This document shows positions 38,100 to 42,135 of a stretch of 64,000 nt of DNA, in pieces (position 1 is the stretch's first letter; each line of letters starts with the position of its first letter). The DNA comes from Dysidea avara (Eukaryota). The notes beneath the pieces were generated by a model. The model had not been told where the DNA came from and made no database searches. It saw only the letters and a list, made by a program, of their open reading frames with translations. The position numbers and the translations under genes were made by a program. The stretch spans positions 27,729,151 through 27,793,150 of the forward strand of contig NC_089281.1 in the NCBI RefSeq assembly GCF_963678975.1, in the 5' to 3' direction.

Positions 38100-38382
38100 T
38101 ATTAGGGTGACTGTTCTATTAGAGTATCTCGATCTCGCATTTGCTACACGTAGTTGCCTTTCGAATCATAACTCAGTGGTTTGTAATCCGATTCTTCTGT
38201 ACTACTGCAAGGACTTTCTATGATGATTATTCCAGCTACACACTGTTTTCTAGCTCATTGCTCTAAGCGGTTTGCCTGGTAGATGTGAAAACTAATAGTT
38301 TTTTTATTCATAAAAATCGATCGCGTAATTTTGACACAGGTTGGGTTTTGTGTCATATCTCCATGGTCTTTATCTCAATTCC
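38100..38382 (+). repeat. Left half (segment A) of a roughly 520-bp repeat unit, interrupted by the retrotransposon; paralogous to 44935-45200
   Basis: About 93% identical to 44935-45200 (ctattagagtatctcgatctcgcat...ccatggtctttatc). Contains the recurrent terminus motif gtgactgttctattagagtatctcgat. Confidence 0.7.
38373..38382. repeat. Target-site duplication, left copy (TCTCAATTCC)
   Basis: The same 10-11 bp (a)tctcaattcc directly flanks both ends of the 38383-42125 insertion. The uninterrupted paralog has one copy, tc(c/t)c(g/a)attcc. Confidence 0.7.
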
Positions 38383-38492
38383 CTTTTTTTTTTTATTTCC
38401 CCGGGCTGGATGGACTGCCCTTGCCTACCACCCCCAGCACAAAGAAAGCACGTGCTGGACAACTGAATAAAAAGGACCAGATTGCTGAAAGT

Positions 38493-38867
38493 TTAAAAGT
38501 CCCTGTGCTCATCAATGCGGCCCATCTCAGGAGAGGCATCAGAGGAGCGATGCGAGATGGACCTACTTCCACGTATGCACATTGTAGCTGACCGAAGTAG
38601 AGAAAAAGACAATGTGCATCGGATAAAAGCCAGAGTCTGACTGTAACTAGTAGAGCCACGGCGAGATAGATGGTCAGCCAAACGACGGTAGAAAACTATT
38701 GCCTCCCTTCCCATACCTCCAGTGGTCGCAAACACAAGGGGAGTGAAGGAGGCCGGCTCAACCTCTCTGACACGGTCACCATACTCACGTTTCTTCTGTG
38801 CCTCGTGACGTCGATACAAAGAGGGGACACTGGTGTTGCAGTAGCTCGGTGCATTAGGATGAAACAC
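38493..38867 (-). pseudogene. Remnant of the retrotransposon C-terminal restriction-like endonuclease region (…[36 protein letters not shown]…). Same frame as the RT ORF but separated by stops
   Basis: Resembles the R2 RLE tail (…LHREKRNKYG…VRATSCTISWRGVW…). Several stop codons lie between the end of the RT ORF (39093) and this segment. Confidence 0.45.
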
Positions 38868-39092
38868 CCTTACGTCAAAAAGGCACTTTGCCGCTGCCCC
38901 CAGAATCCCCTAGCATGTATGTCTGCCCTAGCCTCATCCTGTAGCAGCGCGATGTCTTGGCTACGTTGTCGCATCAGCTTCTCGTTGCTCCGCTCAGCGA
39001 TTGCGTGCCTTAGGGGCGCGCTCTCACAGTGGTTGTCCCATCAGCCATAGGGCACTTGACCTTGTACTATCAGAGGGTCGGGTGCCTTCCCC

Positions 39093-41213
39093 CTAATTAT
39101 TTAAATTGCTCCCTTTAATCTCAGTCCAATTTTTGTCTAGCACTTCAACATCTAGTGCTAGGGGTGGTGGCAAGGGGTGCTGGTTACCCCGGGAAAAAAA
39201 AAAGAAAAAAAAATCCTGACGGTTGGCAGTCTTAGGTGCAATGATCTCCCCAGTAAGTGGCTGTAAAGGTGGCTCAAGGGCCACACCATGACATGTCTTG
39301 GAAAGCCACTCTGCAGTGATGTTTCGCAAAGCATTGTGGCGAACAAATGTGAGGCCTCCATGTCTGCAAATCATAGCATGATCCACAGAAAATGGGACCC
39401 CACAAACACAGTGACTGGGTATGTTCAGGAGCTTCCAGCCGTATCTAAGATGCAAGGCATCCCAAAATTCTTGCTTCAACAGATGGAATCCCTGCTCTGC
39501 TAAAGGCAATGCTGTCAGCCAGGCAGAAGCACCCGGTTCACTGTTCAGGTCTAAAACTCTTTGGGATTGTGACAAAAGATTAGATTTGATCGTAGAAGCC
39601 CTCCCCCTCAAAGTAGAGCGACGATCCTGATGAACCTGAGCCTTGATAGAACTAACGTCGGGTAGAGGGGCTAGTAGATTCTGAGCAACAATCAAAGATC
39701 TCAGAGAGTGTGTGATTTTGATAGATGCAGTAAACTGAGAATCAGCAATGTCTACAGGATTGACAATACCCAAGCCACCTAGGCGGCAGGGTAGAGAGAG
39801 CACATCACGCTCTAAGGCAGAACAAGCACCATGGCCAGTGAGGGCAGGGATCAGCTTCAAACGGATGGCATCCTCTAGAGGCTGAAACAGGGGCCCGACA
39901 TTGGGGATGGTCCTCATGATGTATACCCACCGGCCTATCATCCCATGAGTGAAAGCACAAAAAGCCGCATGAGGACGATTTGTAGCAATCTCAGCCAAAG
40001 CAAGCACTTCACTGGACCAAGAACAAACCTTCTTGGCCACAAACCCCTCTGCAAATTCTCGAGAGCCCAATGCAGCCCCAAGATGGCGCTGGCCCTGATC
40101 AGTAATCTGCATACCAGTGTCAGCAAAGATAGATTTTGCAATAGTTAACAAATGAGGCTTTACAATCAACACTGTCTTAGATGCATTAGAAAAATACCCG
40201 AAATTAGGTCCCAAAGAGGATAGTATCTGCCACCATTTATGCAAAAGTTTCAGTTTCCCCACCGCAGTGGCATCATCTGCAAACCATACCTGCCCAACAC
40301 TGGAGACTGCCACACGGAGTCTTTTAATTAAGGGAACCACAGTCAGGGCATACATTACCATTGCGAGAGGATCTCCTTGAGTTGTTCCTTCACAAGATGG
40401 GATTTCACCCTCTCCAACTACAAACAATCGGACTGGCTGAGCATAAGTGTTGTTCAGGATAGTAGAAAATGCAGGACAAAGGATGGATATATTATGTAGG
40501 GCAGCTTGGCGATTCACACAATTGAATGCATTAGTAGCATCCACTAAGAGTGCAGCTTCACAATCACTGTCATCAAACATATTCTTCATAGCATGTACAG
40601 CAGCCTCAGAGCCAGCTGATTGTCCTGCACAGGTCTGTAATGGGCCAGTGGCCAGCGCAATATCATCACCTATAACATAAAGGATCGCCTTAGCAACAAT
40701 TCTACGGGGCACGTCACCAATACCTATTGGTCTCACACCTGGGCGTTTATCGAGAGGTATCAGCCTGCAAGCAACAAAAGGCATCAAAATTGCAGGTTCA
40801 ACTGTAGTTACGGATAAGCAGCGGGCAACAGAGGCCAAGGCTTGGCACAGTTCAACAGAAGCCTCATTAAAAGAGGTGCACAGACGCTTCCACCCATAAG
40901 CATCCACACCAGACAAACCGGCAGCACCATGAGTATTAAGTGCTGCACGCTTGATAAGATCGCCTGTGAGAGAGTCAAAGATTATCGGATCAAACTGGGG
41001 AGTGATTGGATCACCAGTAGGATCTAGAAGAATGTCAGGGGTAGCAGACTTTGCTGATGGATGTTTCTCTAATAGAATGTCTCTAGCAGTTCGATGTACA
41101 GGATTTCCCGATGGATCCACACCACAAGGAATCATTGAGTCTAGTGACAACACTCCACCTTTTGAATCCTCCGACAGTAAACGAAGAGCCATACCAACCT
41201 TGCCCTCAGACAT
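39093..41213 (-). CDS. Reverse transcriptase ORF of the R2-like non-LTR element (706 aa): RT motifs 1-7, thumb, CCHC zinc knuckle, start of a PD-(D/E)xK-like segment
   Basis: Motifs RLIPLDKRPGVRPIGIGD, LLVDATNAFNCVNR, TTQGDPLAMVMYAL, VWFADDATAV, GYFSNASKTVLIVKP, HCVCGVPFSVDHAMICRH, FVRHNALRN, LEP, RQD and LALDVEVLD. An internal T9CT10 homopolymer encodes FFFFFFS. Confidence 0.8.
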   Translation of the reverse strand: MSEGKVGMALRLLSEDSKGGVLSLDSMIPCGVDPSGNPVHRTARDILLEKHPSAKSATPDILLDPTGDPITPQFDPIIFDSLTGDLIKRAALNTHGAAGLSGVDAYGWKRLCTSFNEASVELCQALASVARCLSVTTVEPAILMPFVACRLIPLDKRPGVRPIGIGDVPRRIVAKAILYVIGDDIALATGPLQTCAGQSAGSEAAVHAMKNMFDDSDCEAALLVDATNAFNCVNRQAALHNISILCPAFSTILNNTYAQPVRLFVVGEGEIPSCEGTTQGDPLAMVMYALTVVPLIKRLRVAVSSVGQVWFADDATAVGKLKLLHKWWQILSSLGPNFGYFSNASKTVLIVKPHLLTIAKSIFADTGMQITDQGQRHLGAALGSREFAEGFVAKKVCSWSSEVLALAEIATNRPHAAFCAFTHGMIGRWVYIMRTIPNVGPLFQPLEDAIRLKLIPALTGHGACSALERDVLSLPCRLGGLGIVNPVDIADSQFTASIKITHSLRSLIVAQNLLAPLPDVSSIKAQVHQDRRSTLRGRASTIKSNLLSQSQRVLDLNSEPGASAWLTALPLAEQGFHLLKQEFWDALHLRYGWKLLNIPSHCVCGVPFSVDHAMICRHGGLTFVRHNALRNITAEWLSKTCHGVALEPPLQPLTGEIIAPKTANRQDFFFFFFSRGNQHPLPPPLALDVEVLDKNWTEIKGSNLNN

Positions 41214-41465
41214 TAAATGATCAAACAGATGAGAGCAATCATGGAGCTTCCCCCCTAGTGAATTATTCTACCTAAGGTGGTCCTGTATACACTGACCCTC
41301 ACGCAGCAGATCATCAAAAGACCCCTTGCACCATAAATCCAGTCTTCGTATCAAATGAGATGAATGATCCTTAGCCTTGCTGTTTTTGTAAGGTTTTTGT
41401 AGAAGTAAAGGTTGCATATCTTGCAAGTTCTTTCACAAATCGCTTTCCAGCCTTGCCAAAGGGTA

Positions 41466-41741
41466 TCAGAAACACATTTGGCTTCCAGTGGACAACTTTT
41501 TCATACGCCGACAACATGAAGTTGCAGACAAGTTCACCATGAACATCGCCCCACTGAAATCAGTGTAGGGTGCATACACAGGTGCTGGGCCTGATGTAGT
41601 CTCTGAAGCACATTGCTCACCATTAGTCATGTTGTATCCAGAACAATGTGGACAGACAAAATCATCCTGAGATGTTCCTATCCGGACAGCATCTGGATAT
41701 GACAACCCTAAGCAGTCAAAATGATACCACACACACAACAA
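41466..41741 (-). pseudogene. N-terminal Cys/His-rich, PHD-like (C4HC3 second half: CVWYHFDC…FVCPHC) segment of the retrotransposon. In frame with the RT ORF but separated by a TGA. The first half of the finger (LMLCCDKQCEGCCVCG) lies in another frame
   Basis: Spacing C-x4-H-x2-C…C-x2-C. An upstream C-x3-C / C-x2-C cluster is visible only after a 1-nt frameshift, so the copy is decaying. Confidence 0.45.
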
Positions 41742-42125
41742 CCCTCACACTGTTTATCACAACACAGCATCAGGCGTCCATCATCAACTCCCCCACAACA
41801 GCACTATAATCCGTCTGGATCGTCCACAGCTGAATGAGAAGGACAGTCACCCGCTATCGCAGCAGCCTCCTGCACACGAATGCGCGCACTCCGGCGAAGC
41901 GACATAAACTAGAAGAGCTGGTCAAAGTAGAATCGATTTAAAGCCTACCGTGACCTAGAACAACGCAAAGAGAGAAGCCCACCATGTAGGCAACAGAGAT
42001 ACGTACCTCTGATAAACCGTTCACAGTTCCGGCAAGTATTTCCCCGAAAAATGCTGCCAGCAGCGTTTAAGCCAACAGAGGGTTCCCCTCGAGCTGCGAT
42101 CACGTGAGTCAAACAATGAAAAAAA

Positions 42126-42135
42126 TCTCAATTCC
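42126..42135. repeat. Target-site duplication, right copy (TCTCAATTCC)
   Basis: See the left copy. It is followed by segment B of the interrupted repeat unit. Confidence 0.7.

What the first reader, a model, noticed from the sequence alone, without database searches (positions are those of the whole stretch)
38373..42135. R2-like non-LTR retrotransposon caught with its insertion site and an empty-site paralog in the same window
A 3,743-bp insertion on the minus strand carries an intact 706-aa RT ORF. Motif 1 reads VRPIGIGDVPRRIVAKAIL (R2-like RPIsvasiPlRhfhsILarrL), and it has FADD and a C-terminal CX1CX7HX3C followed by RHN..W..LEP..RQD..LALDVEVLD. This is the layout of elements that use a restriction-like endonuclease, such as R2, R4, NeSL, CRE and Utopia. 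No apurinic/apyrimidinic endonuclease domain is present. The element ends in A11 on its own strand. It is flanked by a precise 10-11 bp direct repeat, (a)tctcaattcc. The unit it interrupts, 38100-38382 plus 42136-42380, exists uninterrupted at 44935-45455, which gives a filled/empty-site pair with the exact breakpoint. Such elements are usually sequence-specific (rDNA, snRNA, spliced-leader genes, microsatellites), so the target unit may be a preferred site for an uncharacterised family.
Basis: partly seen in the sequence, partly recalled or inferred. Interest (0 to 1): 0.78.

Follow-up and report, generated by a model that had tools for sequence, protein, structure and literature searches.

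The report
Dead copy of non-site-specific R2-type LINE
This is a decayed copy of a very common animal "jumping gene" of the R2 type, caught with its exact insertion site, but other copies show that it lands at unrelated sites, so it is an ordinary although tidy example.

Summary
A 3,742-bp insertion (38383-42124, minus strand) ends in A11(+G). It is flanked by a perfect 11-bp duplication, ATCTCAATTCC. It splits a 528-bp repeat unit that reads straight through the breakpoint in five other copies.

- It is a non-LTR retrotransposon with a C-terminal CCHC knuckle and a restriction-like (PD-(D/E)xK) endonuclease, and it has no APE domain. Fold searches put R2 proteins first.
- The 706-aa ORF is not intact. 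It is the largest fragment of a ~1,070-aa ORF broken by a stop, at least four frameshifts and a 62-bp deletion.
- A nested 271-bp, 5'-truncated copy of a sister LINE family sits antisense inside the endonuclease domain.
- Intact relatives carry an N-terminal PHD finger instead of R2's zinc-finger/Myb module.
- It is not site-specific. Ten other 97-99% identical copies, mostly 5'-truncated, lie at unrelated sites. Their duplications are 7-16 bp and unrelated in sequence. None interrupts the unit.
- The protein family is very large: 9,112 clusters at 50% identity score E<=1e-30.

Verdict: an ordinary new member of the known non-site-specific R2-group LINEs (Hero-like). The clade name could not be tested.

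The parts
38383..42124 (-). The whole inserted LINE copy (3,742 bp). It is full-length or nearly so, and inactivated.
   Evidence: The boundaries are set by the target-site duplication and by gap-free alignment of the flanks to empty units. It is 97-99% identical to copies in L001-L007 and L009-L011.
38372..38382 (.). Target-site duplication, copy next to the element's 3' end (ATCTCAATTCC on the + strand).
42125..42135 (.). Target-site duplication, copy next to the element's 5' end (ATCTCAATTCC).
38383..38394 (-). 3' tail: A11 followed by one extra G at the junction.
   Evidence: The + strand reads C T11. Most other copies end in A7-A16. L009 has a longer interrupted A-rich tail and L011 ends in a G-run.
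38395..38492 (-). 3' UTR (~98 nt). It holds a hairpin, CCAGCAC...GTGCTGG (38434-38458), and a G-rich box, GGGGTGGTAGGCAAGGG (38418-38434).
   Evidence: The hairpin is predicted. The box and the hairpin, with a compensatory C-G to T-A change, are shared with the nested sister-family copy. None of 2,000 shuffles reaches the alignment score.
38493..38935 (-). Distal half of the endonuclease domain and the ORF C-terminus. It includes [13 protein letters not shown], (F)[22 protein letters not shown] and [13 protein letters not shown]. A 1-bp deletion lies in the T-run near 38876-38880.
   Evidence: Removing the nested insert and restoring one T gives a continuous ORF to the stop codon. D938, D954, R956, E978 and K981 (P0001 numbering) are invariant in 28 relatives.
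38936..39212 (+). Nested insertion. It is a 271-bp, severely 5'-truncated copy of a related LINE family (last ~52 codons, 3' UTR, A10GA8 tail) plus one copy of its 6-bp duplication ATCCTG. The other duplication copy is at 39213-39218.
   Evidence: It encodes ..SWLRCRISFSLLRSAIACLRGA / RSHSG..LVLSEGRVPSP*. This matches the family's consensus C-terminus. No tRNA or Rfam match was found.
39213..39413 (-). CCHC knuckle (HCVCGVPFSVDHAMICRHGG, 39354-39413) and the proximal endonuclease motifs RHN (39321-39344), LEP (39264-39284) and RQD (39213-39227).
   Evidence: C868, C870, H878, C882, H892, N893, R896, D897 and P914 are invariant in relatives.
39093..41213 (-). Codons encoded by 39093-39212 are read-through into the nested insert.
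40161..40739 (-). Reverse-transcriptase core. It contains motif 1 (GVRPIGIG..., 40680-40739), LLVDATNAFN (40521-40550), TTQGDPLAM (40359-40385) and VWFADDATAVG (40257-40289).
   Evidence: Pfam RVT_1 covers ORF residues 160-351 at 25.4 bits, which is below the 29.6 cutoff here but above it in several relatives.
41640..41803 (-). Remnant of the N-terminal PHD finger (CCCGGVDDGRLMLCCDKQCEGCCV / CVWYHFDCLGLSYPDAVRIGTSQDDFVCPHCS), split by a frameshift and preceded by a W->stop change.
   Evidence: In relatives the PHD domain scores 38.2 bits in P0005 against a cutoff of 24. P0001 and P0007 score just below the cutoff.
41891..41905 (-). Start of the original ORF (ATG TCG CTT CGC CGG = MSLRR). The 5' UTR is 41906-42124.
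   Evidence: It aligns to residue 1 of P0007, a 97% identical N-terminal relative.
41417..41418 (-). Site of a 62-bp internal deletion relative to other copies.
   Evidence: The L001 and L004 alignments break at element positions 707/708, with 62 extra bases in those copies.
38100..38382 (+). Left part of the interrupted 528-bp interspersed repeat unit.
42136..42380 (+). Right part of the interrupted repeat unit.
44941..45449 (+). Paralogous unit that is empty at the LINE site (site = ATCCCGATTCC at 45195-45205).
   Evidence: 92.7% identity over 509 bp with no gap at the junction.

Best explanation
This is a dead but essentially full-length copy of a young, non-site-specific non-LTR retrotransposon of the R2 group, the group that carries a restriction-like endonuclease.

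Shown from relatives: the active element encodes one ~1,070-aa protein. Its order is N-terminal PHD finger, a ~270-aa helical N-terminal domain, reverse transcriptase, thumb/linker, CCHC zinc knuckle and a PD-(D/E)xK endonuclease.

Inferred from R2 biochemistry and from the anatomy here:
1. The protein binds its own RNA through the 3' UTR (a hairpin plus a G-rich box just upstream of the poly(A) tail).
2. The endonuclease nicks one DNA strand.
3. The freed 3'-OH primes reverse transcription at the A-tail (target-primed reverse transcription).
4. A second nick 6-16 bp away on the other strand produces the target-site duplication.
5. Incomplete reverse transcription produces the common 5'-truncated copies.

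Target choice is not set by a DNA sequence. The PHD finger may instead tether the complex to histone H3 tails, but that is speculation.

This particular copy landed by chance in a very abundant 528-bp interspersed repeat. It then accumulated a stop codon, frameshifts and a 62-bp deletion. It was also hit, inside its endonuclease domain, by a 271-bp truncated copy of a sister family.
For: Retrotransposition hallmarks:
- A perfect 11-bp duplication and an A11 tail sit at breakpoints fixed by five empty units.
- Ten other copies at 97-99% identity were examined. Nine start inside the element, at positions 363-2210. Most end in A-runs.
- Clear duplications differ in sequence and length: GGAATTGAGAT (11 bp), TTTAGGGGATAT (12 bp), (A)ATTGTGG (7-8 bp), CCAGTACTCCACGAT (15-16 bp), and CAGGAT (6 bp) for the nested copy.

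Protein class:
- Pfam finds RVT_1 in 28 of 28 relatives and PHD in the closest sub-lineage. It finds no APE domain.
- The family profile against PDB sequences hits only R2 proteins, at E about 1e-5.
- The AF2 model of P0001 has pLDDT 78.6. It matches R2 structures at E 7.5e-19 to 1e-15 over ~1,050 columns. LINE-1 ORF2p matches over the RT only.
- CCHC, RHN..RD, EP, D, DxR and E..K are invariant across 28 relatives.
- Repairing the two lesions in the endonuclease region restores the reading frame to the stop codon.

Abundance of the landing site:
- Full-length or partial copies of the unit occur in 4 of the 10 same-assembly loci examined (L001, L006, L009, L011).
Against: - No reference RT sequences for Hero, R4, NeSL, Utopia or Dualen were available, so placement inside the R2 group rests on PDB-only comparisons and on fold.
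- Only 4 same-family copies gave unambiguous duplications, so a weak sequence or structural preference cannot be excluded.
- Three LINE copies (window, L001, L006) lie in or near the same satellite/unit composite repeat. This could reflect regional preference rather than abundance alone.
- The window's 706-aa ORF is not in the gene index. The comparison copies may therefore come from a different assembly of the same or a sister species.
Confidence: 0.85

Rival explanations
1. One reading: a sequence-specific R2/NeSL/Utopia-like element whose preferred target is the 528-bp repeat unit.
For: Most described endonuclease-bearing (RLE) LINE lineages are site-specific (PMC4640811 abstract). This copy sits in a multicopy repeat. 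Two other copies (L001, L006) lie within 0.6-2 kb of units of the same family.
Against: None of the 10 other copies interrupts the unit, and none of the 5 other full-length units is occupied. The duplications share neither sequence nor length. Full-length or partial copies of the unit occur in 4 of the 10 same-assembly loci, so proximity is expected from abundance. Non-site-specific R2-group LINEs such as Hero, YURE, EhRLE3 and BLAG are already known (PMC3636483, PMC7650587).
Confidence: 0.04
2. An APE-type LINE (L1, CR1, RTE, I or Jockey group) that has lost its N-terminal endonuclease through truncation, with an unrelated Cys-rich C-terminal tail.
For: A poly(A) tail, variable duplications and 5' truncation are equally typical of APE LINEs. 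Pfam RVT_1 cannot discriminate between the two groups.
Confidence: 0.03
3. The family is a previously unnamed clade of RLE LINEs, separate from Hero, R4, NeSL, R2 and CRE. Its hallmark would be swapping of the N-terminal targeting module (PHD finger, or a CCRCNxxGRCxxCxC Cys-rich motif), with chromatin-guided rather than sequence-guided integration.
For: The only PDB sequence matches are weak and confined to the RT fingers and palm. No paper in the searchable library links a PHD finger to an RLE LINE. The last RT/thumb block (LEDAIRLKLIPALTG) lacks the (V/L)R(K/R)WL signature printed for Hero and R2 in the supplement of PMC7650587. The N-terminal modules differ between sub-lineages.
Against: The family is enormous, with 9,112 50%-identity clusters at E<=1e-30. 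It has therefore almost certainly been catalogued in Repbase or Dfam, which could not be searched. Absence from open-access full text is weak evidence. PHD function is untested.
Confidence: 0.2

Closest known systems
Hero clade (HEROTn, HERODr, HERO-1_BF, HERO-1_SP) and other non-site-specific R2-group LINEs (YURECi, EhRLE3, BLAG)
   Same: A single ORF with the RT followed by a CCHC knuckle and a restriction-like endonuclease, and no APE domain. Insertion is dispersed and not site-specific, as reported for these elements in PMC3636483 and PMC7650587. Hero is reported as the only R2-superfamily lineage in bivalves and also occurs in other aquatic animals (PMC10294476, PMC9004415).
   Different: Membership could not be tested because no reference sequences were available. 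The one printed Hero block (end of the RT/thumb...LRRWLGL) is not obviously matched by LIPALTG here. I could not confirm whether described Hero elements carry a PHD finger.
R2 (R2Bm, R2Tg; 28S rDNA-specific)
   Same: R2 gives the best structural match over the whole protein and the only PDB sequence match. It shares the RPI(g/s)IG motif 1, FADD, the CCHC knuckle, RHN...EP...D...DxR/K...K endonuclease layout, and presumably target-primed reverse transcription.
   Different: There is only ~14-15% identity in the structural alignment. The N-terminus is a PHD finger rather than ZnF + Myb. The element is not in rDNA and is not site-specific. It has a poly(A) tail and 6-16-bp duplications.
NeSL / Utopia / CRE / R4-Dong (site-specific RLE LINEs)
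   Same: The RT-CCHC-RLE architecture. A relative from another species (L008) ends in a (TAG)n microsatellite tail, which is reminiscent of Dong-type tails.
   Different: No common target was found (spliced leader, U2 snRNA, rDNA or microsatellite). No N-terminal C2H2 fingers or protease domain were detected.
CR1-like LINEs with a PHD finger in ORF1 (Kapitonov & Jurka 2003, recalled from memory)
   Same: A PHD finger encoded by a LINE.
   Different: Those are APE-type, two-ORF elements with the PHD finger in ORF1. Here the PHD finger is fused to the N-terminus of the RT-RLE polyprotein.

Membership tests
Non-LTR (LINE) retrotransposons, mobilised by target-primed reverse transcription | A 3' A-rich or simple-repeat tail, target-site duplications of variable length, frequent 5' truncation, and no LTRs or TIRs. 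| tested here: met
   An A11 tail and an 11-bp duplication. Nine of 10 other copies are 5'-truncated, and most end in A-runs. No terminal repeats were found in a self-BLAST.
R2 group (RLE-bearing LINEs: R2, R4, Hero, NeSL, CRE) | A single ORF with a central RT and no APE endonuclease. | tested here: met
   RVT_1 is found in 28 of 28 relatives and Exo_endo_phos in none. The N-terminal 130-400 residues are helical in the model.
R2 group (RLE-bearing LINEs: R2, R4, Hero, NeSL, CRE) | A C-terminal CCHC knuckle followed by a PD-(D/E)xK restriction-like endonuclease. | tested here: met
R2 group (RLE-bearing LINEs: R2, R4, Hero, NeSL, CRE) | The RT groups with R2-group references in a phylogeny. | tested here: inconclusive
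   Only PDB proxies were available. The profile hits R2 proteins alone, and Foldseek ranks R2 above ORF2p. No tree with Repbase references could be built.
R2 clade sensu stricto | An N-terminal ZnF plus Myb module, and insertion at the conserved 28S rDNA site. | tested here: not met
   The N-terminus is a PHD finger. The insertion lies in an interspersed repeat, and no rRNA match was found in 35000-47000.
Site-specific RLE lineages (NeSL, Utopia, CRE, R4, Dong) | Copies occupy the same position of a specific multicopy target. | tested here: not met
   Eleven copies sit at eleven different sites with unrelated duplications, and 5 of 5 other full-length units are empty.
Hero clade | The RT clusters with HERO-1_BF, HEROTn and HERO-1_SP. 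| not testable with these tools
   The only reference text recovered was a ~25-aa terminal block in an OCR'd supplement, which is insufficient.
Hero clade | Dispersed, non-site-specific insertion. | tested here: met
   The literature basis is PMC3636483.
SINE (considered for the nested 277-bp insert) | A pol III-type head (tRNA, 5S or 7SL) with a LINE-derived tail and no coding capacity. | tested here: not met
   There is no tRNA or Rfam hit. The 5' part instead encodes the C-terminus of the LINE family's ORF, so the insert is a truncated LINE.

The most novel reading that the evidence does not exclude
The family, or at least its PHD-bearing sub-lineage, could be an undescribed clade of restriction-like-endonuclease LINEs. 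In it the sequence-reading ZnF/Myb N-terminus of R2-type elements would be replaced by a histone-tail reader, so that integration follows chromatin state rather than DNA sequence. The 3' UTR hairpin and G-box, conserved between two diverged families, would be the RNA handle recognised by the RT.
Probability: 0.2. Interest if true: 0.55.

Novelty: new member of a known kind. Interest (0 to 1): 0.27.

Why it matters
In practical terms this is a clean, fully resolved example of one LINE insertion. It shows the exact breakpoint, the duplication, the tail, the empty sites and a nested second insertion. That makes it useful for annotating this genome's repeats and as a caution that the longest ORF is not necessarily an intact gene.

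In biological terms it adds one more case showing that RLE-type LINEs are not necessarily site-specific. The only mildly interesting lead is that the N-terminal targeting module is swappable in this very abundant family. Some members carry a PHD finger and others a Cys-rich motif. If the PHD finger really guides integration by reading chromatin, the family would parallel the chromodomain of chromoviruses. It could also interest groups that re-engineer R2-type proteins for gene insertion.

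Tried and rejected
- I first called the nested 277-bp insert a partner SINE, because it shares a 3' tail and gives no tRNA or Rfam hit. I rejected this when tblastn and translation showed that it encodes the family's ORF C-terminus.
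- Single-sequence phmmer of the repaired protein against PDB found nothing. A profile was needed.
- The profile of the endonuclease domain against PDB sequences found nothing. Only the fold comparison was informative.
- I could not name the clade. Six literature searches, plus one search for signature peptides, found no description of a PHD + RLE LINE.
- The supplements of PMC4640811 and PMC10294476 held no protein sequences. The OCR'd alignment in PMC7650587 gave full RT sequences only for R2, CRE and BLAG, and a 25-aa block for Hero, R4 and NeSL. No reference phylogeny was therefore possible.
- Source names and accessions of homologues gave only 'hypothetical protein'.
- The organism was not identified. 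The samples are ENA ERZ25068803 and NCBI GCA_010367345.1 only.
- The window's own ORF is not in the gene index.
- The duplications of copies L002, L003, L010 and L011 could not be defined unambiguously.

Full report
**1. Observation**

The minus-strand sequence of 38000-42500 and BLAST of the joined flanks against the window confirm the insertion.
- It spans 38383-42124 (3,742 bp).
- Identical 11-bp repeats, ATCTCAATTCC, lie at 38372-38382 and 42125-42135.
- On its own strand the element ends in A11 plus one extra G.
- The joined flanks align without a gap to 44941-45449 at 92.7% identity.
- Four further copies of the same 528-bp unit, in loci L001 and L006 from a related assembly, are also continuous across the breakpoint.

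The filled/empty-site pair and the exact breakpoint are therefore real.

**2. The ORF is a fragment, not an intact gene**

Three-frame translation, close relatives (P0007, 97% identical, with an intact N-terminus; P0001, 1,080 aa, 70% identical) and tblastn reconstruct the original ORF.
- It begins at 41905 (MSLRRSARIR...).
- It encodes a PHD finger (41640-41803).
- It then changes frame 1->3->2->3 before the 706-aa piece starts.
- It contains a W->stop change.
- A 62-bp deletion lies at 41417/41418.

Downstream, the 706-aa ORF runs into a 277-bp nested insertion (38936-39212).

I removed the insert, which is bounded by a 6-bp duplication (CAGGAT on the element strand), and restored one T in a T-run. 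This gives a continuous ORF through ...[35 protein letters not shown]...[10 protein letters not shown]...[13 protein letters not shown]... to a stop codon at 38493-38495.

**3. The nested insert**

I first took it for a partner SINE, for two reasons.
- Its 3' end shares with the host element a hairpin (CCAGCAC..GTGCTGG versus CTAGCAC..GTGCTAG, a compensatory change), the box GGGGTGGT(A)GGCAAGGG, and CCCGGG before the A-tail. None of 2,000 shuffles reaches the alignment score.
- No tRNA or Rfam family matches it.

However, tblastn and translation show that its 5' part encodes ..SWLRCRISFSLLRSAIACLRGA / RSHSG...LVLSEGRVPSP*. This is the consensus C-terminus of the same protein family. The insert is therefore a 271-bp, severely 5'-truncated copy of a sister LINE family, inserted antisense. 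The 3' UTR module shared by two diverged families is a candidate RT-recognition element, but that is an inference.

**4. What kind of element**

- Pfam finds only RVT_1 (weak here, above cutoff in several relatives) and a PHD finger in the nearest relatives (38.2 bits in P0005). No member of a 28-sequence alignment has an APE (Exo_endo_phos) match.
- Single-sequence search of PDB finds nothing. A profile of 28 relatives hits only R2 retrotransposon proteins, at E 1e-5 to 1e-4 in the RT fingers and palm.
- An AlphaFold2 model of P0001 has pLDDT 78.6 and is confident for residues ~130-1060. It matches R2 structures best: 9nl3 at E 7.5e-19 and R2Bm 8gh6 at 1.1e-17, over ~1,050 aligned columns. 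LINE-1 ORF2p matches only ~650-700 columns.
- Invariant residues in the family (P0001 numbering) are C868, C870, H878 and C882 (the CCHC knuckle), H892, N893, R896, D897, P914, D938, D954, R956, E978 and K981.
- From memory of the R2Bm literature (Govindaraju et al. 2016), the R2 endonuclease also has D...D...K with the lysine on the following helix. That is a lead, not a test.
- The endonuclease profile has no sequence-level PDB hit, so the endonuclease assignment is structural.

**5. Target specificity**

I fetched ten further copies, 97-99% identical, from one ENA assembly (ERZ25068803; loci L001-L007 and L009-L011).
- Nine are 5'-truncated, at element positions 363-2210. Most end in A-runs.
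- L011 ends in a G-run, and L004 and L005 lack the tail.
- Unambiguous duplications are TTTAGGGGATAT (L006, 12 bp), (A)ATTGTGG (L007, 7-8 bp) and CCAGTACTCCACGAT (L009, 15-16 bp, with a 15-bp 5' duplication). The window copy has GGAATTGAGAT (11 bp) and the nested sister copy has CAGGAT (6 bp).
- These duplications share no sequence.
- None of the ten copies interrupts the 528-bp unit, and all five other full-length units are empty.
- Copies in the window, L001 and L006 lie in or near the same satellite/unit composite repeat. Full-length or partial copies of the unit occur in 4 of the 10 loci, so abundance is a sufficient explanation.

Non-site-specific R2-group LINEs are already known: Hero, YURECi, EhRLE3 (PMC3636483) and BLAG (PMC7650587).

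**6. Abundance and novelty**

- The word-seeded search found more than 1,700 clusters at 90% identity. Many are 950-1,100 aa and cover ~97% of the query at ~50% identity.
- An exhaustive profile search found 9,112 clusters at 50% identity with E<=1e-30, and 36,305 with E<=1e-10.
- A family this large has almost certainly been catalogued in Repbase or Dfam, probably as Hero or a neighbouring clade.
- I could not test that. No reference sequences were obtainable, and the open-access literature searched contains no description of a PHD + RLE LINE.
- Within the family the N-terminal module varies. The closest sub-lineage has a PHD finger. Most others have a CCRCNxxGRCxxCxCVKxGxxCxxCLP Cys-rich motif with no Pfam match.
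- A relative from another species ends in (TAG)n rather than poly(A).

**7. Mechanism**

Shown:
- the architecture PHD - N-terminal domain - RT - CCHC - RLE;
- the poly(A) tail, the variable duplications and the 5' truncations;
- a conserved 3' UTR module.

Inferred from R2 biochemistry:
- the protein binds its RNA through the 3' UTR;
- the endonuclease nicks one DNA strand, and reverse transcription is primed from that nick;
- a staggered second nick 6-16 bp away gives the duplication.

Speculative: the PHD finger tethers the complex to histone H3 tails.

This copy is dead. It has a stop codon, at least four frameshifts, a 62-bp deletion and a nested insertion.

**8. Verdict**

The structural observation is correct and the broad class is correct. 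The claims of an intact ORF and of a preferred target are wrong. This is an ordinary new member of a known kind. The one modest lead is the swappable N-terminal module.

Noticed in passing
window 38936-39212 (+), with duplication copies at 38936-38941 and 39213-39218: A 271-bp, 5'-truncated copy of a second, related LINE family lies antisense inside the endonuclease domain of the first. It shares a 3' UTR hairpin (with a compensatory base-pair change) and a G-rich box with the host element. This makes the module a candidate RT-recognition element.
   Followed up: yes
window 43546-44940: The 'empty' paralogous unit carries its own ~1.39-kb insertion near unit position 19-27. The insertion has 17-nt terminal inverted repeats (TAGAGATTTCCAACTAA / TTGGTTGGAAATCGCTA) and an 8-9-bp duplication (TTAGAGTA), which looks hAT-like and non-autonomous. 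A 92% identical copy lies at L006 7566-8955.
   Followed up: partly
window 36046-38028 and 42678-43418: Arrays of a 31-bp satellite (consensus CTCTCTACAGGGTGATTTGTTTGTAGCTGAA, with higher-order periods of 61, 92, 123 and 154 bp) flank the unit on both sides. The same satellite-plus-unit composite recurs in L001 and L006. What the composite is, for example a non-autonomous transposon that carries a satellite, was not resolved.
   Followed up: partly
window 42381-42472 and 35485-35691: Long near-perfect palindromes lie next to the unit and satellite blocks. They give only sub-threshold matches to plant and insect miRNA precursor models (bits far below gathering), so they are probably foldback or MITE-like structures rather than miRNA genes.
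   Followed up: no
window 9048-9713 (-): A 221-aa ORF (...LFADDCIIYKAI...YLGIII...) looks like a fragment of an unrelated reverse transcriptase, judged CR1/Jockey-like (APE-type LINE) by eye only.
   Followed up: no
L008 3730-3830; L011 ~6187-6197; L009 4817-4846 and 6270-6325: The termini vary in this family. A relative from another species ends in a (TAG)n microsatellite. One same-family copy ends in a G-run instead of poly(A). Another has a long interrupted A-rich tail plus a 15-bp duplication of its truncated 5' end, which suggests template jumping.
   Followed up: partly
L001 5740-5800: Just upstream of a near-full-length copy there is a partial repeat of the element's first ~35 nt followed by GGGGGAAAAAA. 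This is a 5'-end duplication or a tiny tandem fragment, and it is unexplained.
   Followed up: no
Alignment A2 (proteins P0015, P0020, P0021, P0024, P0069, P0086, P0101 and others), N-termini: Most family members lack the PHD finger. They start instead with a conserved Cys-rich motif, M.CC(R/K)CN..G.C..C.C.K.G..C..C.P...G.C.N, which has no Pfam match. The N-terminal module has therefore been exchanged within the family.
   Followed up: partly
L003 2149-3086: One LINE copy is interrupted by a ~0.94-kb insertion that begins with a (TTA)n run. This is probably another retroposon in reverse orientation.
   Followed up: no
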